Assembly (NCBI RefSeq): GCF_009914755.1
Contig: NC_060933.1
Direction: 5' to 3' (one strand)
DNA: 64,000 nt
Source of the DNA: the human T2T-CHM13v2.0 reference genome, Homo sapiens
How positions within the stretch are numbered: position 1 is the stretch's first letter; every line of letters begins with the position of its first letter. Positions 2,674-54,248 of the stretch are shown here, in pieces. The notes under the pieces were generated by a model. It saw only the letters and a list, made by a program, of their open reading frames with translations. It did not search any database and was not told the origin of the DNA. Position numbers and translations under genes: made by a program.

Positions 2674-3164
2674 CTGAGTAATCTGATAAGTACTATTCAG
2701 TAATTAGTAGTGTAAAGACATTTCTCTCTATTTGAAAGATAGAGAAAAATACATTTCTCTCTATTTGAGTGAGTTTTCTAATAAGAGTTTTAAATTATAT
2801 GTAGAAGATTTCTGGATTAATAGAGGGAAATTAGTTTAGATTTTTGATGTTTCTTTAGCTGAAAGTTATCCCAGGACACGGAGTGTCATCAACATGGGTC
2901 TCAAAATTAGCTCTTGTTGCTCCTTCACTTTCTTACCTTTAGAATTATAAAGACATCTGAACATTAAATATACAAAACAGATACACACAAACCTTGACAA
3001 CCAAATCATTTAACAATTCTAAACATAAAGCTAAGTATTTGTTTCTTTTTTACTCATTTGCTTCCCTTAAAAAGCACTCCGAAAATTAGTGTTATGATAG
3101 AAGTAACTAAAACAGGGAGCTGGGACTATGATAAAGGTAAGCTACACCCAGGGACCCAGGGTAG

Positions 3165-3507
<343 letters not shown>

Positions 3508-4529
3508 GGATGGGGAATATTTCAGTATAAGAAAACTTAATTCTGAAAGGAGAGAATAAGAGACATGATAAAAGTGACAGAATTACCAATGTGTATGACA
3601 AAAAGTATTAAATGATTTGGATACATAGAGGATATTTTGGTTATTTTTTTACCTATGTAATTTTTTTTGTATTTAGGAGGCTTAAGGAAGAAAGCACTAA
3701 AAAGCTCAGTGTTGGCATGGCTCTGAGAACCTCCCTACAGAGTTGAATAGACACATATTTTGAAACAGTTGGGACACGGCATTTCTATTAGTTTCTTTTA
3801 TTCACAGTATAGGCCTATTTTCTTCTTTTAAGCTGGTGTGTCAAAGGACTCTTGAGCAATTGAATCTTGTAGGCCCGGGTGATTTTTGGTCATTTGCCAC
3901 ATGTCACTCCTTTCTCAACCGTAAACCAACACTACAGAATTACAGCTAGAAGAATATGGTACCCAGGGATTTGGACAGTTCCATTCCAATAAATGATTTA
4001 TATAATTAAAAACAAGGATAGGGAAGAGGGAACAAAACAGTGAAATACCGTACAGTTCTGGATCACAAAAGTTTTGAATACCTTCTACTTTGTAATATTT
4101 CCATTAAAGACTAGTGGGAGCCTGCCTTCAGTGCCTCACCTGAGAAAAGAAAAAGCTGTAATTAGTTTGCCTGCAGACAAACCCTTTTTTATTATATCCT
4201 GCTTTACCTAAAACAGAAAGAAGTCTTCTTTGTTCATATGTAATATCTGATTATGAACTGCACTATGCTGTCTTTGTAAAGATATCACTCACAAAAACGT
4301 ACGTTCCTAAATGGCAGAGAGCATTTCCAGCTGCTCGAAATAGATCTGGCACATAGTATAAACTCAAAAAAAATTTACTAATTTAATGTTGAATGCTTTC
4401 TGTGAAAGGGAATTTTAGTTCCATAATTAGCTACATTTACAGGAATTGAAATAGTAGCAAACAGAAACAGAAATAGAGGGCTAGAACTCTAATAAATGGC
4501 AATGGGGGACAGATTTGGAGTGTCATTTG

Positions 4530-4900
4530 CACTGAACATTCTGCTTGCACCCTTCCTGATCTACTCTCTACCCTAATATACCCTGATATATCTTCCAGGA
4601 GGTTGAGTGTCCCCTTTTCCTCTGTTTCCTATTGGGTTCTGCCAATGTGTGGGCCAGATGAAGATTAGAAGGCAAAAACAAGAAGCTGACACTTTTGTTT
4701 CATTGGCTTTTTGCTTTCCAGGCTCAATCTCAGCCATTTAACTAGCAAAGTACTCATCTTCAAGGGCGCTGACTCTCCTACAGCTAAAGTTCTCACCCAA
4801 TCCAAAGATAGAGCCTAAGCCTTTGCCATCACTTGTGAATTTCCTTTTACCCTTCCCACACACATCTTTGTCAATTGTTTTGGGTATGCCATCTTCCTAT
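4530..4900. mobile_element. Degraded ERVL LTR (LTR33-like)
   Basis: ttcctattgggttctgccaatg...gaagattagaaggc motif resembles LTR33. Confidence 0.35.
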
Positions 4901-6099
4901 GAGGACCCTAATCCATACAGCTTTGGATGTTGTGAGGTTTGGACTCAATTCTGTAGGAAAGAAGAATCAGTAGCTTTTCAAATATCGAGACATTCATACA
5001 CCTCGAAATATTAGCAGCACAAAACAACCTAGTACACTGCAAGGTGCTTAGGAAGAGAGTCCTTATTAGAAGCCATAATCAGTGCTTAAAAGAATGCATG
5101 ATATACATGGCCCAAGATACATATTAGTTAAATAAAATAATAAGTTAACCTTGAAAATAATTGATTAAATCTGTGAAGCCTACAGCTTAAACTTCAAGCA
5201 AGTACAAAGAGAGTACATTTTCTAGAAGAATCTCTAGTTATTTTGGAATGGAGGAGTAACAAAACAGGTAGACTACAGAGGAATTCTGTAAGCTTAAAGC
5301 AGGCAGTCTAAATGAGGAATTCCCCGAGACAGCAGGACCTGAGCAGGGTCTCTTTGGCCATTAGGTGTTGTGCCAGCTTTTATTCCCAGCTGTCTTACTG
5401 TGACCACAGATAATTCCTTCTGAGTGATTAAGTAAGTACATTAGTGTAGAGCCGCAGTGAACAATTATTGCTTTACAATCCATAAGGACAGACCTGGAAT
5501 CGAACACAGAGCCAAGGCATCACTTGCCTCACCCTGCAGATGCCACTCTGATATCAAAAAATGGTTGACTTCATTAAGCTTTCCAAGTATAGAGCCTATG
5601 CGGATATTTTTAGAATTAGGAAGCCTGCAAGACAAGATGCCAAGCAGAACTAAGAAGGTGAGGGGGAAAATACAAAGGAGAAATTGAACAAAGAAAGATG
5701 CTGTTGGATTTCTTGAGCAAGTTCTTTTACTTCCCTTTTGTGGCCAAATTTCCTAGGATGAGGACTTTTTTTTTTTTTCCACCTCGAAATGACCTTTATT
5801 ATTATTTGTGAGAGACTGTATAAATAAAACTTGTCTGTTACAAAAAATATGGGAAATGCAGTTAGAGCAGATAGGTAGACTACTATGTGGGAATATGTAA
5901 ATTCTGCAACTGAATTTTATAAGTGAATTAATGTTTCTACAAAGGGTTAAACTAGGCTAACCAAGAACAAAGTGATCCGTCTAGGGGCTTAATTGGTACA
6001 GAGTGATAAATTACATCTGCATAGATACTCATCTAATTCTAATTATGACCTGTAAGGTAAGTATCATTATCTCCAAATGAGTAATGTAAGAGTGCATAT

Positions 6100-6320
6100 G
6101 AAAGCTATCATATACTGATGGTGTACTGTGTTCTAGGCATGTGCAAGCATTCTAATACACGAATTCATTTAAACCTCAAAATATCTCTGTAGAATTAGAT
6201 TTTACTGGCCCTATTATTGTAGGTGAGAAAACTGACATCTATTCCACTTCCCAGGATAACATAACCTATACATGTCAGAGATGGAATTTTAACCTCATCT
6301 TTGAACTACAGATTCTCCAG
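6100..6320 (-). mobile_element. MIR SINE
   Basis: Core motif ...ttattgtaggtgagaaaactga...cttcccaggataacata...ggaattttaacc. Confidence 0.65.
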
Positions 6321-7821
6321 GGTTTCCACTATTCCATACTGTCATATGATTTTCTATCGGAAATACTGCCAGGTATTCTTAAAATTGGTGTTGCACACCA
6401 CCAAGAGACTCCCCGCCTTTATGCTCTTCCACATGTCTTCTACTAGCAAAGATGGGAGAGAGACTCTCCTCTTGAATTTATGCATTAATTGCATGCTCGT
6501 ATTAATGATTAGTGGAATAGTTCAGAATTATAAAATATACTTTGTGCTCTTCAACCCACCCTATGCTAGAGTAGAGGAACACTCTATAGAGAAAATAGTG
6601 CAGTATTATTTTCTTTAAAATATAGTAGCCACATTTGGATTCAAGGGACCAAAAACAGTGAGTTATCAAGTTTTCTGAGTTGAAAATGGAAGTGCAGAAC
6701 TTGTGAACTGTTGTATTTGGAAACATATTTGAAAAAGCTGCAAAATCATGAAGCCATTCAAAATACTATAAACCAGAGGGATAAATGAATGTACCATTAT
6801 CTGCTGGTTTATCTATTTTATCCACTTCAGAGTATCTTAATTCTCATGTTCCAGGACTGCTGAATATGTTTAATTCTGCCAAATTATTTCATAACATAGA
6901 AATGATAAGAATAAAACATATATGAATTAGCAGATTTAGAATATGTTAAGTAGGGTATTGGAGTGGTTATAGACTCGGTGAACAATACTAGGAGCATAAG
7001 ACACGGGAGAAGTGGTTATCAAATTCTAAATATTTAATATTTCATTTCTTCAGTGAAATCAACCATTCCACAAATGAATGATAGCCTAATTGTTGCTGGA
7101 GTTCAATTCTCGGATTTAAAACTCACAAGAGTGTAACTCTCAGCAAGTTATTTATCCTTTCTAATTCTCCGTTCCCACATGTGTAGTGATGAAAACAAAA
7201 ATCTGTTGTAAGGCTCAACAGAGTTAATGCCCTTAAGCACTTAGAGGAAGAGTTCAATTGATGTTTGCTCTTTGTATTAGAGCCTGAAAATTACTGTTCC
7301 CAAAATTTGCCTTCAAGAGAGCATCTACTAACAATAGGCTAAGAGTTGTGATACTGTGGCTAGGATCAAAGCTAGGAACACTCTGAATAGCATTAATTCT
7401 TTGATGACTTTTCTACTAACAAGACTCCTTTACATACCTTCAAACTATGATAATATATTTTGTGTTTATATAACAATTACATGTTTCAAACGCAATTGTA
7501 TTTATTTCTGCATTTGGTTTGACAATCAACACTTAGCTTCATGGATACTGCACTGTTTCTGTGGCCAGTGCTGCCACTACAATCTTAAGCTTTAAGTCCT
7601 TCCAGAAGAGACCAGGAGACCACCCACGTTTACCCAAGGCATGAGATTGAAACATTAAGTTTGAATTTGGAGAATCAATGAATTATACATGGTGACATCT
7701 GCTTTGTGCCCCTCAGCACCTATATAAAATATTTGCAGGACTATGTGGTAACTCCCAAGGGGTTCCTAATTGTATATTTGAAATTAATATTCATATCATT
7801 ATATAACTTGAAAATAAATTA

Positions 7822-46329: not shown

Positions 46330-46870
46330 AGTTTATTTTTAAAATCTTATTGAGAATTTTCTGGGCGTTAGACAAGAAAGGCATGAAAGATATAGCCATG
46401 ATAAAATCAACATGGATTCTGTGCTCATGGGTCTTAAATCCAGTAAAGGAAACAGGATTTAAATATGTTATACTACTAACTATAACAAACGCTATGAAGA
46501 AAAGGGTGCAATCGTAAATTATAACAGTATGGTATAATTTAGATTGTAAGGTGAGGAAAGCCTTCTCTGATTAAGGGATTTTGAAGCTGAAATCACACGG
46601 ATGATTGGGAGTTACCCCGGCAAAAAGTAAAAGAAGGCTAGGCATCACTTTAGAAAGGTTTTAGGTGGGAGAGAGGCTAACCCATTCCAACAATGGATAA
46701 AGAGGGGAAAGTGACATGCGGCAAACCTAAGCAGGAAAACAGGGAACATATACGGGGTCATGTTAAAGTACTACCTGACTTGTCCAATGTCACACAAATA
46801 GAAAATGGCCTTGCTGAGACTAAGTTTCTTAATTTCTATTCTGCTGGTTTTTCCACTTTGCTACTACACT
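46330..46870 (-). mobile_element. L2/MIR fragments
   Basis: ggaaagccttctctga...ttttgaagctgaaa (L2) and tgacttgtccaatgtcacac (MIR). Confidence 0.5.
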
Positions 46871-47059
46871 GTCTTTTTACAAATGAGTGAACAAAGATAT
46901 TCTCCTATTTTGAATTCATATTTTCAGATGACGGCCTTTAAAAAGCAACAATACGGTAGTGATTTATCAAAATTGATTGTTGGCTAAATTAATATCTTAA
47001 TAGTGGGTTGTTTATATTCATTACATTAATTAGAATTTTAGCTATACTAAGATTTATTA

Positions 47060-47640
47060 GAGAGACACAGAGTGTGGCCCGCTCCCCCAGGGCCCTCCAG
47101 GCCCTTCGGCCGCGGGCCGGCGGGTGAGCTGGGGGTCCCCAGGACAGGCCGCGCCCTCTGTCCTGCAGACACCTGAGGCCTCCGCTGTGGCTGCCCACTG
47201 GCCGGACCCAGGTCTTGAAGCCGCGGCGAACCTCTCATCCCCACCCCACCTCGGTGACTGATGGCGGCAGCGGCTTGTCCCTGCCGGGACCCCACCCAAC
47301 ACCGGGTCTCCCAGCCCAAGCCTGCCGGAACGCAGTGTCTTTGGGTGGCGGCGGGAGTGGCGGGCCCGGAAGCATGGCGGCCACCCAAACGCCAGGCGAT
47401 GGAAGCCGTTAGGGCGTGGCGGAACCGGAAGTCGGCCTAGGGACGCACGCAGGCTCGGCTGTCTCTTTAGGCCACGGAGCTGCGTAGATCCGGAACCCTG
47501 GGCGACTGATCTGTCCCCATTGGGCGAGACCTACCTAGACAAAGGCCTTAACATACCGACAAAGGCCTTAAGGGGCCTGGGAGGTGAGCGAAGTCCCGAA
47601 AAACGGGTGGAAGGTTAGGGGCCATGGGGCGGCTGGTCTT
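47060..47640. promoter_or_regulatory. CpG-island-like 5' end of the NORAD retrocopy with ETS (CCGGAAGT) and YY1-like (ATGGCGG) motifs
   Basis: About 45 CpGs counted by hand in ~580 bp. CCGGAAGT at 47425-47432, CCGGAAGCATGGCGG at 47366-47380, GATGGCGGC at 47260-47268. Promoter activity is inferred, not shown. Confidence 0.6.
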
Positions 47641-48445
47641 CCTTCTACCAGATCTTGCTGTTGGGAGAAATGGTAGAATGACAGGCCACTTTTGGCCCGT
47701 TGGAAATGCCCACCACCCTTTGGGAAGATTTACTGGCCATTTATGGAAGGCCTGTGTATACAATATGAAAAACCTGCCCTCAACTCCACCCTAGCCTGTT
47801 GATAGAAAACATTTGTCACATCTAGCCCTTCTAGATGGAAAGAGGTTCCTGACGTATGATAAAGTAGAGTTAGAAAGTCACATCTTGTAAATTCTCATTT
47901 GTTTAAAGGAAGTCGTACAAAATAAATGTCTTCTGGAGATGATTTTTGGAAATGGAGTTATTAGACAGCCCCTGGAAGCGATACATCCACGTTTGTTCAG
48001 TGGGTTAGATGACATGGAGCTGGAAGACCTGAGAAGGAAGAGAAGAAGGTTCTATGACAGACTGGTCATATTTAGAAGACACTTTCATATTCTATCCATA
48101 GTTTTGTATGCATTTTATTCCTCACTACCTTATATATAGTTGACAATGCTAAGCTTTTTTGAAATGTCTGTTTTTTTAGATGTTCTGAAGTGCCTGATAT
48201 ATGTTAAAATTAAAGGTAATAAAAACACATTTTGTAAGTATCTTTTTGTTACAATTCATAGAAAATGTTGCTTTGGTGGGGAATGGCCAAATCACCTGTT
48301 GAGTAATACTCATTGTGTTTGTGCGCTGGTTCAGGGGAGGAGGGAAGAGGGGAAAGTGCAGAGAGCTCTATGCCACCCTGCCTACAGCGGGGCAAGATGA
48401 ATCATCTATTTCTGTGCATTTTGTTTTACTTATCTGTGTATGTAG

Positions 48446-51405
48446 TGTACATAAAGGACAAATGAGCCCTAATTTACAACATCTAGTCTTTCTAGATGCT
48501 AAGGAGGTTGCCAGTGTCTGACAAAAGTAAAGTTAGTAAACTAATATATTTTGTACATTTTGTTTTACAAGTCCTAGGAAAGATTGTCCTCTGAAAATTT
48601 GAGCATTCTTGCCCACTGGGTTGTTGGAGATAGGAAGGGTTCTAGGCCAGAACGTTCATATTTGGAAGATTCTTTCAAATTATAACTGTTGTTACATGTT
48701 TGCGGTTTATTCAAGACTGCTTTGTACAAAGTGGACAAATTAACTCCTTACTTGAAACATCTAGTCTATCTAGATGTTTAGAAGTGCCTGATGAATGTTA
48801 AATGTAGAGGTAGTAAAATACCATTTTGTAAATATCTTTTTGCTGAAATTCATAGGAAATACTGTCTTTTGGAAATTGAATTGTGAAGCCACCTTTGTGA
48901 GAAGTATAGTGCTGTCTATACTTGTTCAATGGTTTAGAGGAGGTAGGAGGGAAGAAATTGCAAAAGGTAATACGCTAGTATGTTCATAGTTGGACTTTTT
49001 CAGACACCATTTTTCTGTATCTTTTGTGCATTTTGTTTTGCTCTGTATATAGTGTATATAATGGACAGGTGAGTCCTAATTTTGCAGCATCTAGTCTAGT
49101 CTCTAGATGTTAAAGAGGTTGCCAGTGTATGACAAAGTATTTAGTAAAATTAGTATATTTTGTATGCTTTTGTGTTGAAATTCATAGGAAAACTTGTCTT
49201 CTGTGAATGACTTTTGCATAGGAATTTGTTCAACCATCCCTAAGCATTACATGTGCCCGTATTTGTCCACTGTATTAAAGTCAGAGAGAGAAGGAAGTGA
49301 GGAGGGAATGATTGAAGGCCAAAATATTCACATTTAGAAGATACCTCAGTTGATAACCATTGTTCCATGTGTGCAATTTTATTTAACAGTGCTGTGTACG
49401 TGGTGGACAAGTTATATGAAATATCTAGTTTTTCTAGATATTTGGAAGTGCTTGATGTATTTAAAAGCAGTAGTAGAATAACACTTTTTGTAAACAGCTT
49501 TTAAAAACTGATAGGAAATGCTGTTTGGAAGTGGAATTGTTGAGCTACCTGGGAGATGAGAGTGAAGAAATAGCAAAAGGTGTTTTGCCGTTGTTTATTA
49601 GAAAATTTCAGCTTAATCCATTGCCTATATGTTACATGCATTTCATTTAACTTTGCTATACTGTATATATTGTGTATATACTGGACAAATGAGTCCCGAT
49701 TTTATAATATCTAGTCTCTAGATATTAAAGAGGTTGCCAATGTGTGACAGAAGTAGAGTTAGTAAACTAACACATTTTGTACACTTTGTTAAAATTCATA
49801 GAAAGGCTGTCTTCTGAAAAGGACTTTTGAAAGTGAAATGATAACATCAGCTCTAAGTGACACATGTACCTATATCCACCAGGTTGGTGGTGGAGAGGAG
49901 TTGGAAGGAATGAAGGATTCTAGACCAGAATGCTCCTATTTAGAAGACACTTTCAGATGTAACCACTGTTACATGTGTGTAGTTTATTCAACACTACTGT
50001 GTCCATAGTGGACAAACTTAAGTCCTTATTTGAAACATAAGTCTTTCTAGATGTTTAGAGATGCCCAAAATATGTTAAAAGCAGAGGCAGTAAATATAGT
50101 AGAGGTAGAAACATAGTCTTTCTAGATGTTTAGAAGTGCACAAAGTCTGTTAAAAGTAGAGGTAGTAAATAACACATTTTGTAGCTATCCTTTTGATATG
50201 AAATATTGTCTTATGGAAATTGATCAGTTCTCTAAGCAGTACACATTATTATATTTGTGCTGGTTCATAGGAAAGGAGGAGCACAAAGTGCAAAGGGCTT
50301 TCTACCAGTGTGTTTATGATGATGCCCATTGACCATTGTCCCTTATGTCTGCATTTTCATTTACTGTGCTGTGTATATAGTGTATATAAGTGGACAAAAG
50401 AGTCCTAATTTACATCTAGTCGATGTTAAAGGGTTGCCAGTGTATGACAAAAGTAGAGTTAGTAAACTAATACATTGAGTACACTTTGTGTTAAAATTCA
50501 TAGGGAAGACGTCTTAAAAACACAGAAGTGAAATTGTTAAAATCCCCCTTAAGCATTACAGATGGCTTAAAGCTGTCTCTGGGGTTGGTAGAGGTCGGAA
50601 AGGGAAGGGTTCTGGGCCAGAATGTTCCTATTTAGAAGACACTCAAATTAGAGTCTGTGTTATGTATATGCACCATTTATTCAGTGCTATTGTGTATATA
50701 AAGGAAAACTTTAGTCCAATTTGAAACATCTAGTCTTTTTAGGTGTTTGAAAGTGCACAACATAGATTAAAAGTAAAGGGCTAAAGTAACACCCCTCTCA
50801 GTATTTGTTTTCATTACTTCCTAGGAGTGGTTGCATTTGGGAATGGAATTTTTAAACTTGATGCTTAGGAGCATATGCTGACTATTCATTGGGTGGCGAT
50901 GGGTTAGGGAGGAGGAAGTATGCAGGGAGAAGGGTTCTGAGCCCATGAGTTAGATTAGTTCAGATGGTCTGACCATTGTTCTATATGTGTATTTTAATTA
51001 ATATTGTATATTAAAGGATAAACAACTCCTAATGCTCAAAGTATGTTAAAACTAGATGTAGTAAAACAATCCCTTTATAAATGTCCTTTTGTTAGTTTTT
51101 AGGAAGGTCCGTCTTCTGGGAGTGACCTTTATTAGGTCCCTAGGAGCTAGACGTCCTATACTTAGCCACTGGGGATGGTGGAAAAGGGAGAAGAGGAAGG
51201 GTGAAGGGAAGGGCTCTTTGCTAGTATCTCCATATCTAGAAGATGGTTTTAGATGTTAACCACAGGTCTATATGAGCATTTTTAGTAAATTCCCTGTGTT
51301 TATTGTGGACAAATTCATTATTTTGCAATATCTAAACTTTATGGATGTCTGGAGTGACAATATATGATAAAAACTAGAGCTAGTGAATTAGCCAATTTGT
51401 AAATA
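48446..51405 (+). other. Array of 10 canonical Pumilio response elements (UGUANAUA)
   Basis: TGTANATA starts at 48446, 48827, 49044, 49053, 49662, 49673, 50372, 50381, 50693 and 51398. Degenerate sites are at 47755, ~48130 and 48437. Confidence 0.9.
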
Positions 51406-52121
51406 CCTTTGTTATAATTGATAGAAAAGATGCGTCTTGGACATGGAATTGTTTAACCACCTCTGAGCAGTATATGTCAGGACTTGTTCGTTAGGTTGGC
51501 AGCAGAGGGGCAGAAGGAATTATATAGGAGAGATGTGTGCAGATGTGTCCATATTTACATGTTGACGATAGCCATTGATGTATGTGCATCTCTTTTGGCT
51601 GTACTATAGGAATACATTAAGTAATTTAATGGAAATATACCTTGCTAATATTTCAGTGCTATAGATCTGCTAATGAATTATCTTAGAAACATTATACTTA
51701 GTGTATTCTGTTGCTGTATGTTTCATTTTAAGTTGAGCATTAAGGGAATGCAGTATTTAAATCGGAACTCTGCCAATGCTTTTATCTAGAGGCGTGTTGC
51801 CATTTTCGTCTTCTATGAAATTTTTGTCCCAAGAAAGGCAGGATTACATTTTTTTTAACAGATTGAGTTGGTATAGTGTATTCTTAGTTATCAAAATACT
51901 CATATAGCTTTGGGATTTTGAATTGGTAAATATTCATGATGTGTGAAAAAGCAGGATACATACTGTACGATCTCAGTCCCATAAAATTGGATGTTGTGCC
52001 TACACACCCACAGGACCTAGAAGAACATGTCAAACTATAAACTGATTGTGATTGTGAATGACTTTGTTCTTTGCTTCTTGTGTTTTTCAGTTTCCTATGT
52101 TGCACATATTAACTTTTTAAA

Positions 52122-52127
52122 AATAAA
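52122..52127 (+). terminator. Polyadenylation signal of the retrocopied transcript
   Basis: AATAAA about 20 nt upstream of the residual A tract. Confidence 0.8.
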
Positions 52128-52159
52128 GATTATTTTTAAAACCCGTAAAAAAAATTATT

Positions 52160-52385
52160 GAATGCCTCCAATGTCCCAAGCTTTCAGCTGTTTTATTTTC
52201 CTATATATTAATTGCATCTAATCATACTTCCCACCAATTTCTACTTTCTAAATCAAGAAATTGAAGTTCTGAAAGCTTCAGTACCTTTCCCAAAAATCAC
52301 ACAAATAGAAAATACTGGAGCCACAATTTGAAAATAGTACCATCTAACTCCAAAGTCAATTCTTACTGTATTTTATCACGCTATC
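52160..52385 (-). mobile_element. MIR fragment abutting the 3' end of the NORAD retrocopy
   Basis: aatcaagaaattgaagttctgaaag...ttcccaaaaatcacaca...ggagccacaatttgaa. Confidence 0.55.
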
Positions 52386-53863
52386 TTTTCAGCAACATAA
52401 AAAATTAATTCAGCCTTAGTTTAGTAATATTTCTTTGTAGTACTTTCTTCATCAGAGAGAAAAATGAGGTGCCAACAGATAATTATACATGTGTGGAGAT
52501 GACTAGATGTTGCTATGAAATCAAATGAAACAATCAACAAAGAGGCTCATTACACCTTTATCATATTTGTTAACTGAAAACATGTTTGTTGTTTCTGTTT
52601 TGGTTTGGGGGAGGACTTAGGTAGATAGGGATGATACACTGGCAACTGAGCTTATTTTTACTGTCAAATTAATCATCCTGGGTAGAATGGTTACTTGAAT
52701 AGCTTGTGTCATTATTACTCTAAAGAAAAGTTGCCACTGGGCTAGAATGGCTCATAAATTTATTGTATCAGCTGGTGTGAAATATTGAGGCATTAATTTA
52801 ACTATGGCTAAAGTAATAGCTATAATTTTAAGTGAGTTGATATAAAGTTTTGCAACTTAAAACTTGTTCAAACAGGCCCAATAATATTGATATCAGTTAA
52901 AATATTTTCTTAAAATCATTGTGCATTTTATAAAGAACTTATTTTATACCAGATTATTAAAAGCCATCCTAAACCATTTTTACACACCACAAATTTGATT
53001 TATCAACAGCACTGGTTGCATTTACTAAAATGTAATCCCTACAAGGGTAAGAAGTTTTGTCTATTTAATTTCACCATTCCATCCCCAGCACTCAGAACAA
53101 TATATTACACATATTAGCATTAAATAAATATTTTTAAATTAATGAATTAATGTGTCTCCGAACCAAATAGTTAATTTCTTTGGGGACTATTTCCTTTACC
53201 TGTTAAAAGGGAAGGCTGAGAGAGGCTCTAAGAGGTCATTATCAACTGCTTCTGGCAATTTTCTGACAACCACAAGGGGAATCAGTCTTAAAATGCAGAT
53301 TCTCTATAGATTACAGAGTGGAGAGAAGAAAGAAGTCTTTCTACCAGTCAGTTGCAAAGCTTCTTATATCTCTGCTTTTGGTAATGGAGATTTTAAAATA
53401 ATAGTAAAAGCACTTACGATTAAGTTTATTTGAGATAAAATTCCTCTACTTGCTGTTAAAATCATTCAGATTTCCATCTTTTCTATTTTAGTGTAGATTT
53501 GAGGCTGTATTGCACTTGTTCTAGTATTGCACTTGTTAGCACTATTACTGTATTACATTTGTTAATACAAATTTCAAAGACATAGCTTTTGGGCACTTGA
53601 AGAATAGAAAAATTTTTAATGGGCAAAGAGGAATGAGGCATGGTTTTTTCCCTAGAGAGGCATACAAACATGAGAGGGAACAAAATAAATATCTAAATAC
53701 AAATTACCTAAAGGGGAATACATATTTACTATGAACATATGTATAGATGTGATGCCTAGTAATTCCATTTGTGTTCTATTCCTCCTCTTTGGTTTATTTT
53801 ACTGTTGTTGACAATATTTAATAAGTCAAATCCACATCTTAATTGAGCCTGTAGATATTTTAG

Positions 53864-54248
<385 letters not shown>

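What the first reader, a model, noticed from the sequence alone, without database searches (positions are those of the whole stretch)
47060..52154. Near full-length NORAD lncRNA retrocopy: a candidate second PUMILIO-decoy locus
Seen in sequence: a ~5.1 kb intronless block with a GC-rich head, about a dozen internal ~300-nt repeat units, a poly(A) signal and an A tract, embedded in unrelated AT-rich DNA. Established: NORAD sequesters PUM1/PUM2 through multiple UGUANAUA elements, and it has retrocopies in primates, of which HCG11 is a transcribed one. Inference: this copy keeps the 5' end, the repeat scaffold and the 3' processing signal, so if transcribed it could titrate PUMILIO. It could also confound NORAD read mapping, probes and guide RNAs. 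It may already be annotated as one of the known NORAD pseudogenes.
Basis: partly seen in the sequence, partly recalled or inferred. Interest (0 to 1): 0.85.

Follow-up and report, generated by a model that had tools for sequence, protein, structure and literature searches.

The report
Old, decaying NORAD retrocopy on chr9
This stretch is a genuine, almost full-length processed copy of the NORAD long noncoding RNA that landed on chromosome 9 tens of millions of years ago, but it is decaying like a pseudogene and the only same-strand RNA annotated from it stops before any PUMILIO-binding site, so it is an ordinary member of an already reported set of NORAD pseudogenes.

Summary
Observation confirmed. 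Window 47060-52154 (+) aligns collinearly, end to end, with the chr20 NORAD locus at 91.2% identity (4498 of 4934 ungapped columns). Homology stops at both transcript ends. An 8-base A run follows at NORAD's cleavage site, and 7 of those As are absent from the parent locus.

The copy has a CpG-rich head, 12 repeat-unit positions about 300 nt apart, and 10 UGUANAUA sites. It lacks about 21-26 nt of the 5' end that five sibling copies keep. It also lacks an Alu that sits inside NORAD and three younger copies, so it predates that insertion. On the family tree it is an independent, older offshoot than the chr6p22.2 copy taken to be HCG11 (terminal branch 0.0595 against 0.040).

The decoy idea is not supported:
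- PUMILIO sites decayed at the neutral rate: 10 of 16 ancestral sites survive against 10.4 expected.
- The annotated sense RNA, LINC03094, is 449 nt and ends at a copy-private AATAAA before the first surviving site, so it carries none.
- Tichon et al. 2016 report four NORAD pseudogenes above 90% over 4 kb, unexpressed except HCG11. By my identities this copy is one of exactly four that qualify.

Already known in kind; low interest.

The parts
47060..52146 (+). Body of the NORAD processed retrocopy. It corresponds to the NORAD transcript from about nt 22-27 to the cleavage site.
   Evidence: Three collinear BLAST pieces. MAFFT pair alignment: 4498 matches, 436 mismatches, 91.2%. Flanks are unrelated to the chr20 locus.
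47060..47586 (+). CpG-island-like head inherited from the transcribed 5' part of NORAD.
   Evidence: 527 nt, GC 0.69, 41 CpG, observed/expected 0.66. 25 of 50 scorable NORAD head CpGs are kept. GC profile.
47814..51417 (+). Array of 12 NORAD repeat-unit cores spaced about 300 nt.
   Evidence: nhmmer: 12 hits, all inside the block and none elsewhere in the window. One extra unit near 49095 comes from the repeat finder family D8. Tichon 2016 describes 12 units of about 300 nt.
48446..51405 (+). Span holding the ten surviving UGUANAUA PUMILIO response elements, starting at 48446, 48827, 49044, 49053, 49662, 49673, 50372, 50381, 50693 and 51398.
   Evidence: One search gives the positions. maps them onto NORAD sites 1427, 1801, 2015, 2024, 2615, 2626, 3251, 3260, 3569 and 4575.
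50032..50171 (+). Private 75-nt tandem duplication within one repeat unit. It carries no PRE.
   Evidence: TRF: period 75, 1.9 copies, 87% matches. It appears as a 74-column insertion relative to NORAD. All other copies break at this point.
50752..50760 (+). Empty site (AGTGCACAA) where NORAD and three younger copies carry a 286-nt Alu flanked by a duplication of this 9-mer.
   Evidence: Alignment of both boundaries. The 286-nt segment is a dispersed repeat: 57 hits in 221 kb of fetched DNA, including two masked stretches of this window.
52122..52127 (+). AATAAA poly(A) signal inherited from NORAD.
   Evidence: aligned 3' ends.
52147..52154 (+). Remnant of the poly(A) tail: 8 A, of which 7 are not templated by the parent locus.
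   Evidence: NORAD locus reads ...CCTGTA|TTAAGCC, the copy reads ...CCCGTA|AAAAAAATTATTG. Copies on chr12, chr9:38.68 Mb and chr5:33.16 Mb end within 4 nt of the same point, also followed by A runs; the chr14 copy ends there too, followed by an interrupted A-rich stretch.
47466..47583 (+). LINC03094 exon 1 (hub annotation), inside the retrocopy head and in NORAD sense.
   Evidence: Annotation supplied with the finding. The donor GG|GTGAGC is present in all 8 aligned copies that cover it, NORAD included. 81.2% identical to NORAD.
47909..48239 (+). LINC03094 exon 2. Its acceptor AG (47907-47908) was made by a private A>G at 47908. It ends 16 nt after a private AATAAA at 48218-48223.
   Evidence: at 47908 this copy has G where the other 7 copies that cover the column have A. 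The hexamer is AATAAA only here; the 7 other copies that keep it have AGCAAA or AGTAAA, and the chr7 copy has a deletion there; the 449-nt exon sum holds 0 TGTANATA and 0 TGTRTATA.
48557..49413 (-). First exon of the predicted antisense lncRNA LOC105376193. It is antisense to NORAD-like sequence.
   Evidence: Hub annotation. The plus-strand AC at 48555-48556 reads as a GT donor on the minus strand. 92.4% identity to NORAD, longest perfect run 55 nt.
47173..48028 (-). Second exon of the predicted antisense lncRNA LOC105376193, also inside the retrocopy.
   Evidence: Hub annotation. Plus-strand CT at 48029-48030 and AC at 47171-47172 fit a minus-strand AG acceptor and GT donor. 86.9% identity to NORAD.

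Best explanation
A polyadenylated NORAD transcript was reverse-transcribed and inserted here, by the L1-type route that makes processed pseudogenes. This happened roughly around the stem of the anthropoid primates, before an Alu entered the NORAD gene and before the HCG11, chrX and chr12 copies arose. Since then the copy has evolved neutrally and has lost 6 of its 16 PUMILIO sites.

It is not a working PUMILIO decoy. Its CpG-rich head, which is transcribed NORAD sequence, is probably a weak promoter. That is an inference from the annotated start site lying inside the copy. A latent donor inherited from NORAD, a private acceptor and a private AATAAA turn the sense output into a 449-nt spliced RNA (LINC03094) that ends before any PUMILIO site. 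The opposite strand has been taken up as two exons of a predicted lncRNA.

Shown here: identity, boundaries, relative age, neutral decay, and the origin of the splice and poly(A) signals. Inferred: the L1 mechanism, the absolute age, promoter activity, and the lack of full-length RNA.
For: - Collinear alignment at 91.2% identity over 4934 ungapped columns, with unrelated flanks.
- The 3' end lies at the same cleavage site as other copies, followed by 7 non-templated As. The 5' end lies within 21-26 nt of the common start of five other copies.
- The own-genome search returns 100 matching pieces on many chromosomes, as expected for a dispersed retrocopy family.
- The maximum-likelihood tree is comb-shaped, with the chr20 locus on the shortest branch (0.005). 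Terminal branches are chr5 0.012, chr12 0.020, chr14 0.026, chrX 0.034, chr6p22.2 0.040, this copy 0.0595, chr7 0.0596; bootstrap support 89-100.
- The Alu at NORAD 3638-3923, with a 9-nt site duplication, is present in chr12, chrX and chr6p22.2 and absent here with an intact single site.
- Neutral decay of PUMILIO sites: 7 substitutions in 112 specified positions (6.25%), against a private substitution rate of 6.0% overall and 4.3-5.4% in the body. 10 of 16 sites survive against 10.4 expected; binomial P(<=10)=0.51.
- Rate variation along the copy (first kb fastest) is mirrored in the chr7, chrX and chr6:29 Mb copies, so it reflects mutation and not selection.
- LINC03094 signals: the donor is shared by all copies, while the acceptor AG and the AATAAA are private to this copy. 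Its exons hold 0 PREs.
- Tichon 2016: the close pseudogenes 'do not appear to be expressed' except HCG11, which is about 20 times lower than NORAD.
Against: - No target-site duplication can be shown. The best candidate is AAGATTTATTA / AAAAATTATTG, 8 of 11. The best local alignment of the flanks scores 11, and 43% of random flank pairs do as well.
- Intron loss cannot be used as evidence, because the parent has no intron.
- No RNA-seq, CAGE, 3'-end or CLIP data were available, so the absence of a full-length sense RNA rests on the annotation and one paper's statement.
- Ten intact PREs remain, more than most mRNAs carry, so any full-length RNA would bind PUMILIO.
- The head still meets CpG-island criteria (observed/expected 0.66), which is compatible with activity.
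- The absolute age relies on recalled primate divergence values, not on orthologous loci.
Confidence: 0.88

Rival explanations
1. The copy is a second functional PUMILIO decoy. On this reading a full-length sense RNA is made, at least in some tissue, and its ten PREs titrate PUM1/PUM2 as NORAD does.
For: Ten perfect UGUANAUA and 11 UGURUAUA sites remain on the sense strand. The repeat scaffold of 12 units is intact. The inherited terminal AATAAA is intact. The head is CpG-island-like and an annotated sense start site lies within it (hub annotation).
Against: PREs decay at the neutral rate, with no sign of constraint. A private AATAAA at 48218-48223 ends the annotated sense RNA 207 nt before the first surviving PRE. 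No full-length model appears in the supplied annotation. Tichon 2016 finds the close pseudogenes unexpressed except HCG11, and even HCG11 is about 20 times below NORAD. Decoy action depends on abundance: the paper reckons about 70 NORAD copies x 17 sites against about 750 PUM molecules in U2OS.
Confidence: 0.04
2. The locus has been put to use as an RNA gene with a role of its own. The main candidate is the antisense lncRNA LOC105376193, whose first two exons are about 1.7 kb of antisense NORAD sequence and could pair in trans with NORAD. LINC03094 could also act independently.
For: The antisense exons 48557-49413 and 47173-48028 are 92.4% and 86.9% identical to NORAD, with perfect runs of 55 and 46 nt. 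Their splice sites are canonical on the minus strand. LINC03094 uses two copy-private signals.
Against: LOC105376193 is a predicted model only. Private signal gains are expected by chance in 5 kb of neutrally drifting sequence. The substitution pattern shows no constrained segment. Literature searches found no functional study: LINC03094 appears in 1 paper, as an entry in a list of predicted targets, and NR_109803 in 0 papers.
Confidence: 0.06
3. It is not a direct retrocopy of NORAD. Instead it would be a DNA-level duplication, or a copy made from another pseudogene such as HCG11.
For: Its identity to NORAD (91.4%) is only slightly above its identity to the chr12, chrX and chr6p22.2 copies (90.7-90.8%).
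Against: Flanks share nothing with the chr20 locus, and the 5' flanks of the copies differ from one another. The A run is non-templated. The copy lacks the Alu that the chr6p22.2, chrX and chr12 copies all carry. The tree places it as a separate, earlier offshoot of the chr20 lineage with 100% support at the adjoining nodes.
Confidence: 0.01

Closest known systems
NORAD (LINC00657), chr20 parent gene
   Same: Collinear over the whole transcript at 91.2% identity. Same 12-unit repeat scaffold, same terminal poly(A) signal and cleavage site, and 10 of 16 ancestral PREs in orthologous positions.
   Different: It lacks the upstream promoter and about 21-26 nt of the 5' end. It lacks NORAD's internal Alu and has a private 75-nt duplication. 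Six PREs are lost. A private premature AATAAA is present. It evolves neutrally, whereas the chr20 copy has the shortest branch of the family at 0.005.
HCG11, the transcribed NORAD retrocopy at 6p22.2. I take it to be the copy at T2T chr6:26.39 Mb, from the cytoband in a review abstract and from recall; I saw no annotation for that locus.
   Same: Both are near full-length processed copies of NORAD with a CpG-rich head (observed/expected 0.80 there, 0.66 here).
   Different: They are independent insertions. HCG11 carries the NORAD Alu plus a second Alu of its own. It is younger (branch 0.040 against 0.0595) and has 16 UGUANAUA sites against 10 here. It is reported as expressed as a one-exon RNA. 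The only sense RNA annotated here is a 449-nt spliced fragment.
The set of close human NORAD pseudogenes reported by Tichon et al. 2016 (four with >90% homology over >4 kb)
   Same: By my identities, exactly four copies qualify: chr12, chrX:79.4 Mb, chr6p22.2 and this one. This copy is therefore very likely one of the four.
   Different: The passages I read give no coordinates, so the match rests on the count and the thresholds only.
Pseudogene-derived lncRNAs in general (a processed pseudogene overlapped by annotated lncRNA exons)
   Same: Both strands of the retrocopy contribute exons to annotated or predicted lncRNAs (hub annotation).
   Different: The parent here is itself a lncRNA. No regulatory relation to the parent has been shown.

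Membership tests
L1-mediated processed retrocopy (processed pseudogene) | Homology to the parent is confined to the mature transcript, at an unlinked locus. | tested here: met
   Homology covers 47060-52147 only. The flanks are unrelated. The parent is on chr20 and this copy on chr9.
L1-mediated processed retrocopy (processed pseudogene) | A poly(A) tail at the parent's cleavage site that is not encoded by the parent locus. | tested here: met
   Seven extra As follow ...CCCGTA, where the parent continues TTAAGCC. The chr12, chr9:38.68 Mb and chr5:33.16 Mb copies end within 4 nt of the same point with A runs.
L1-mediated processed retrocopy (processed pseudogene) | Target-site duplication flanking the insert. 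| tested here: inconclusive
   The best candidate matches 8 of 11. The best flank alignment score is reached by 43% of random pairs. The younger chr12 sibling has a clean 12-nt duplication, AAAAATCTAACT.
L1-mediated processed retrocopy (processed pseudogene) | Loss of introns. | not testable with these tools
   The chr20 locus is collinear with its copies apart from its Alu, so there is no intron to lose.
NORAD-type PUMILIO decoy lncRNA | Many PREs (UGUANAUA) on the transcribed strand. | tested here: met
   10 sites on the + strand, against 15 in NORAD.
NORAD-type PUMILIO decoy lncRNA | PREs maintained by selection. | tested here: not met
   7 substitutions in 112 PRE positions (6.25%) against a 4.3-6.0% background. 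10 of 16 survive against 10.4 expected.
NORAD-type PUMILIO decoy lncRNA | An abundant, full-length cytoplasmic transcript carrying the PREs. | not testable with these tools
   No expression data were available. The annotation shows only a 449-nt PRE-less sense RNA. Tichon 2016 says the close pseudogenes appear unexpressed except HCG11.
NORAD-type PUMILIO decoy lncRNA | Bound by PUM1/PUM2 in cells. | not testable with these tools
   No CLIP data. Published pipelines map reads to NORAD first because of the pseudogenes, which would hide copy-specific reads.
CpG-island promoter | More than 200 nt with GC above 0.5 and CpG observed/expected above 0.6 (thresholds recalled). | tested here: met
   527 nt, GC 0.69, observed/expected 0.66. 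Every other copy that covers the head also keeps 0.64-0.87, so this is a family trait. Promoter activity itself was not tested.

The most novel reading that the evidence does not exclude
NORAD retrocopies may arrive with a usable promoter, because NORAD's CpG island extends about 0.5 kb into its transcript. On this reading the chr9 copy is transcribed on both strands. The antisense product (LOC105376193 exons 1-2) is 1.7 kb long and 87-92% complementary to NORAD, with perfect runs up to 55 nt. It would pair with NORAD in trans and modulate its stability, editing or PUMILIO loading. That would make it a pseudogene-derived antisense regulator of a lncRNA, not a second decoy.
Probability: 0.05. 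Interest if true: 0.5.

Novelty: already known. Interest (0 to 1): 0.15.

Why it matters
Mostly for bookkeeping. LINC03094 and the first two exons of LOC105376193 are pieces of a NORAD pseudogene, so expression, CLIP, probe and CRISPR work on NORAD should treat this locus as an off-target.
- 74 of 5052 50-mers of the copy are identical to NORAD, and 0 of 5027 75-mers are.
- 55 of 566 NORAD protospacers with NGG are perfect matches here.

The copy is also a dated snapshot of NORAD from before its Alu insertion. Together with the younger copies, it shows that human NORAD recently lost one PRE (site 2024) and shifted another. It does not add a second PUMILIO-titrating gene.

Tried and rejected
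- Target-site duplication: searched for and not distinguishable from chance.
- The 298-column gap: I first read it as loss of one NORAD repeat unit. It is in fact an Alu gained by NORAD after this copy was made.
- First family alignment: it included 1.2 kb of non-homologous chrX sequence and inflated chrX divergence. I redid it with trimmed ends. Only the later numbers are used, apart from the NORAD UGUANAUA count of 15 cited.
- Lower substitution rate in the central repeats: considered as a sign of constraint, and rejected because the chr7, chrX and chr6:29 Mb copies show the same gradient.
- Rfam scan of 46500-52700: 0 families at the gathering threshold.
- Literature. 'LINC03094' appears in 1 paper, as a list entry only. 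'NR_109803' appears in 0 papers. 'NORAD' + 'retrocopies' gives 1 paper, listing only, not read. 'NORAD' + 'pseudogenes' + 'multi-mapping' gives 3 papers, listings only. None of the passages or listings I read or saw describes the chr9 copy.
- The Lee et al. 2016 Cell paper could not be opened under the id I tried, so its statements about PRE number and copy number are not used.
- No protein tools were used, because the feature is noncoding.


Full report
**What is there.**
Window 47060-52154 differs sharply from its AT-rich surroundings. GC reaches 0.645-0.662 in the 400-nt windows covering 47000-47599, falls to about 0.32-0.39 for the remaining 4.5 kb, and the flanks sit at 0.31-0.39.

The block contains many families of direct repeats with start-to-start spacings near 300 and 600 nt. 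A profile made from seven unit cores finds 12 hits in the whole 64-kb window. All are on the + strand within 47814-51417, and five were not in the seed. Two of the hits are the halves of a private 75-nt tandem duplication at 50032-50171. One further unit, near 49095, appears only in the repeat finder family D8. That gives 12 unit positions, the number Tichon et al. 2016 describe for NORAD (passages read).

TGTANATA occurs 27 times in the window against 13.3 +/- 3.8 expected, and 0 of 100 shuffles reach 27. Ten matches lie on the + strand between 48446 and 51398. AATAAA at 52122-52127 is followed about 19 nt later by an 8-base A run at 52147-52154.

**Identity.**
The window's own genome could be searched. 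The 5095-nt block finds itself and then 99 further matching pieces on many chromosomes. The best is on contig 20 at 37.77 Mb, minus strand.

With 1 kb of flank added on each side, BLAST against that chr20 locus gives three collinear pieces: 47060-50096, 50108-50761 and 50750-52147. Nothing in the flanks matches. A global MAFFT alignment has 4498 matches and 436 mismatches, which is 91.2%.

I take the chr20 locus to be NORAD for three reasons:
- It sits on the shortest branch (0.005) of a comb-shaped family tree.
- It holds 17 UGURUAUA motifs, the number published for NORAD.
- NORAD is on chr20 from my own recall.

I saw no annotation for that locus.

**Retrocopy hallmarks.**
- 3' end. The parent locus reads ...CCTGTA followed by TTAAGCC, and the copy reads ...CCCGTA followed by AAAAAAATTATTG. 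Independent copies on chr12, chr9:38.68 Mb and chr5:33.16 Mb end within 4 nt of the same point and are also followed by A runs; the chr14 copy ends at the same base, followed by an interrupted A-rich stretch.
- 5' end. Five other copies (chr12, chrX, chr6p22.2, chr5, chr7) all begin 21-26 nt upstream of where this copy begins, and their upstream flanks are unrelated to one another. NORAD's start therefore lies about 21-26 nt upstream, and this copy is slightly 5'-truncated. Adding about 24 nt to the 5315 aligned bases gives the 5,339-nt length I recall for the RefSeq NORAD record (recall only).
- Target-site duplication. None can be shown. The best candidate matches 8 of 11, and 43% of random flank pairs align as well as the best flank alignment. 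The younger chr12 sibling has a clean 12-nt duplication.
- Intron loss is not informative, because the parent has no intron.

**The 298-column gap is an Alu in NORAD.**
I first read this gap as a lost repeat unit, and that was wrong. The 286 nt present in NORAD (nt 3638-3923 of the aligned transcript) are bracketed by a duplicated AGTG(T/C)ACAA and end in an A run. The segment is a dispersed repeat, with 57 hits in 221 kb of fetched DNA. These include window 53954-54248 and 3221-3487, both listed as masked by NCBI. I recognise it as an Alu from recall.

The Alu is present at the same site in the chr12, chrX and chr6p22.2 copies. It is absent here, where a single intact AGTGCACAA sits at 50752-60. 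This copy was therefore made before the Alu entered NORAD, and those three copies after. Relative to the NORAD of its time, the copy is complete apart from the first two dozen bases.

**Place in the family and age.**
Twenty other NORAD-like loci were fetched and compared. Ungapped identities to NORAD are: chr5:25.3 Mb 98.3% (2.5 kb only), chr12 96.8%, chr14 95.6% (1.4 kb), chrX:79.4 Mb 94.4% (4.2 kb), chr6p22.2 93.3%, this copy 91.4%, chr7 90.8% (2.1 kb), and lower for older copies.

Exactly four copies exceed 90% over more than 4 kb, and this is one of them. [quoted passage not shown].

The ML tree orders the offshoots by terminal branch length: chr5 0.012, chr12 0.020, chr14 0.026, chrX 0.034, chr6p22.2 0.040, this copy 0.0595, chr7 0.0596, chr9:38.7 Mb 0.086, chr6:29 Mb 0.113. 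Bootstrap support is 89-100. The copy is therefore independent of, and older than, the one I take to be HCG11.

Its private non-CpG substitution rate in the body is 4.4-5.3%. Set against recalled human-lineage divergences (about 3% since the split from Old World monkeys, about 5% since the split from New World monkeys), this suggests insertion roughly 40-50 million years ago. That is an inference, not a measurement.

**Is it a decoy?**
Mapping the copy's ten PREs onto the family alignment shows that the NORAD of that time had 16 sites. Two of them (2024 and 2626) have since changed in human NORAD itself.

The copy keeps 10 and lost 6, at NORAD 737, 1116, 1217, 1418, 2442 and 2948. The losses involve 7 substitutions in 112 specified positions, or 6.25%. 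The copy's private rate is 6.0% overall and 4.3-5.4% beyond the first kilobase. With the ML branch of 0.0595, 10.4 survivors are expected; binomial P(<=10)=0.51. There is no sign that the sites were protected.

The faster rate in the first kilobase is shared by the chr7, chrX and chr6:29 Mb copies, so it reflects composition and not selection.

**What the locus does produce.**
The supplied annotation places LINC03094 (exons 47466-47583 and 47909-48239, + strand) wholly inside the copy, in NORAD sense.
- The donor GG|GTGAGC is present in all eight aligned copies that cover it, NORAD included, so it is a latent site.
- The acceptor AG at 47907-47908 exists only here, through an A>G at 47908.
- The hexamer at 48218-48223 is AATAAA only here. 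The seven other copies that keep it read AGCAAA or AGTAAA, and the chr7 copy has a deletion there.
- The annotated RNA ends 16 nt later, 207 nt before the first surviving PRE. Its 449 nt hold no TGTANATA and no TGTRTATA.

Its start site lies 406 nt inside the copy, so any promoter must be retrocopied NORAD sequence. The head is still CpG-island-like: 527 nt, GC 0.69, observed/expected 0.66. The other six aligned copies that cover the head, NORAD included, show 0.64-0.87, while the bodies of all aligned copies are at 0.21-0.39. Promoter activity is inferred, not shown.

On the other strand, the predicted LOC105376193 starts at 49413. Its first two exons (48557-49413 and 47173-48028) are antisense NORAD sequence with canonical splice sites. 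They are 92.4% and 86.9% identical to NORAD, with perfect runs of 55 and 46 nt.

**Practical confounding.**
- Identical to NORAD: 270 of 5066 36-mers, 74 of 5052 50-mers, 0 of 5027 75-mers.
- 32% of 36-mers differ from NORAD at two positions or fewer.
- 55 of 566 NORAD 20-nt protospacers with NGG are perfect matches here.

Short CLIP reads and some guides can therefore cross-map, while ordinary paired-end RNA-seq should not. The field already knows this. Kopp et al. [quoted passage not shown]

**Literature.**
I found nothing that names this chr9 copy.
- 'LINC03094' occurs in one paper, as an entry in a target list.
- 'NR_109803' occurs in none.
- 'NORAD' with 'retrocopies' gives one paper, listing only.
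- The three-of-four-term search listed 15 of 30 papers. I read passages of two of them and had read passages of a third, the Tichon paper. One pseudogene-lncRNA survey lists only CTA-14H9.5 and HCG11 as LINC00657-derived.
- Supplementary tables were not consulted and could hold coordinates.

**Verdict.**
This is a real, near full-length, roughly 40-50-million-year-old processed pseudogene of NORAD, one of the four close copies already reported. It decays neutrally and is partly taken up as exons on both strands. The PUMILIO-decoy reading is unsupported, though it was not tested directly with expression data.

Noticed in passing
L009 (chr20 NORAD locus) 2995-3280; corresponding empty site in window 50752-50760: Human NORAD carries a 286-nt Alu inside its single exon, flanked by a 9-nt site duplication. 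The chr12, chrX:79.4 Mb and chr6p22.2 copies share it. The chr9 copy lacks it, and several older copies show a BLAST break at the same NORAD position. The Alu is therefore a relative time marker for the whole retrocopy family.
   Followed up: yes
L018 (chr14:46.34 Mb) 4780-6152: This 1.4-kb 3' copy (95.6% to NORAD) begins at NORAD nt 3928, about 5 nt after the end of the internal Alu's A run (nt 3923). That may reflect reverse transcription stopping at the Alu A run, or it may be coincidence.
   Followed up: no
L012 (chr6:26.39 Mb, presumed HCG11) 6700-6987: The presumed HCG11 copy has a second Alu of its own, which interrupts the alignment at NORAD nt ~4546-4562, in addition to the Alu inherited from NORAD at 5766-6043.
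   Followed up: partly
L010 (chr12:29.26 Mb) around 2331 and 7679: The chr12 copy (96.8% to NORAD, full length) has a clean 12-nt target-site duplication, AAAAATCTAACT, on both sides. It illustrates the L1-type insertion that can no longer be shown for the chr9 copy.
   Followed up: partly
NORAD nt 2024 and 2624/2626 in the family alignment; window 49053 and 49673: Human NORAD itself has changed two PREs since these copies were made. Site 2024 is TATATATA in NORAD and in the youngest chr5 copy, but TGTATATA in the chr9, chr12, chrX and chr6p22.2 copies. The site at 2626 has shifted by 2 nt. The pseudogenes thus preserve older states of the parent gene.
   Followed up: partly
window 53954-54248 (-) and 3221-3487 (-): Two Alu-like elements in the window outside the retrocopy, 83% and 71% identical to the NORAD Alu. 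Both coincide with stretches NCBI lists as masked.
   Followed up: no
Heads of all fetched copies (aligned to NORAD nt 1-560): Every NORAD copy that covers the head keeps a CpG observed/expected of 0.64-0.87, even the 86%-identical chr6:29 Mb copy, while the bodies sit at 0.21-0.39. The transcribed part of NORAD's CpG island seems to resist CpG decay wherever it lands.
   Followed up: partly
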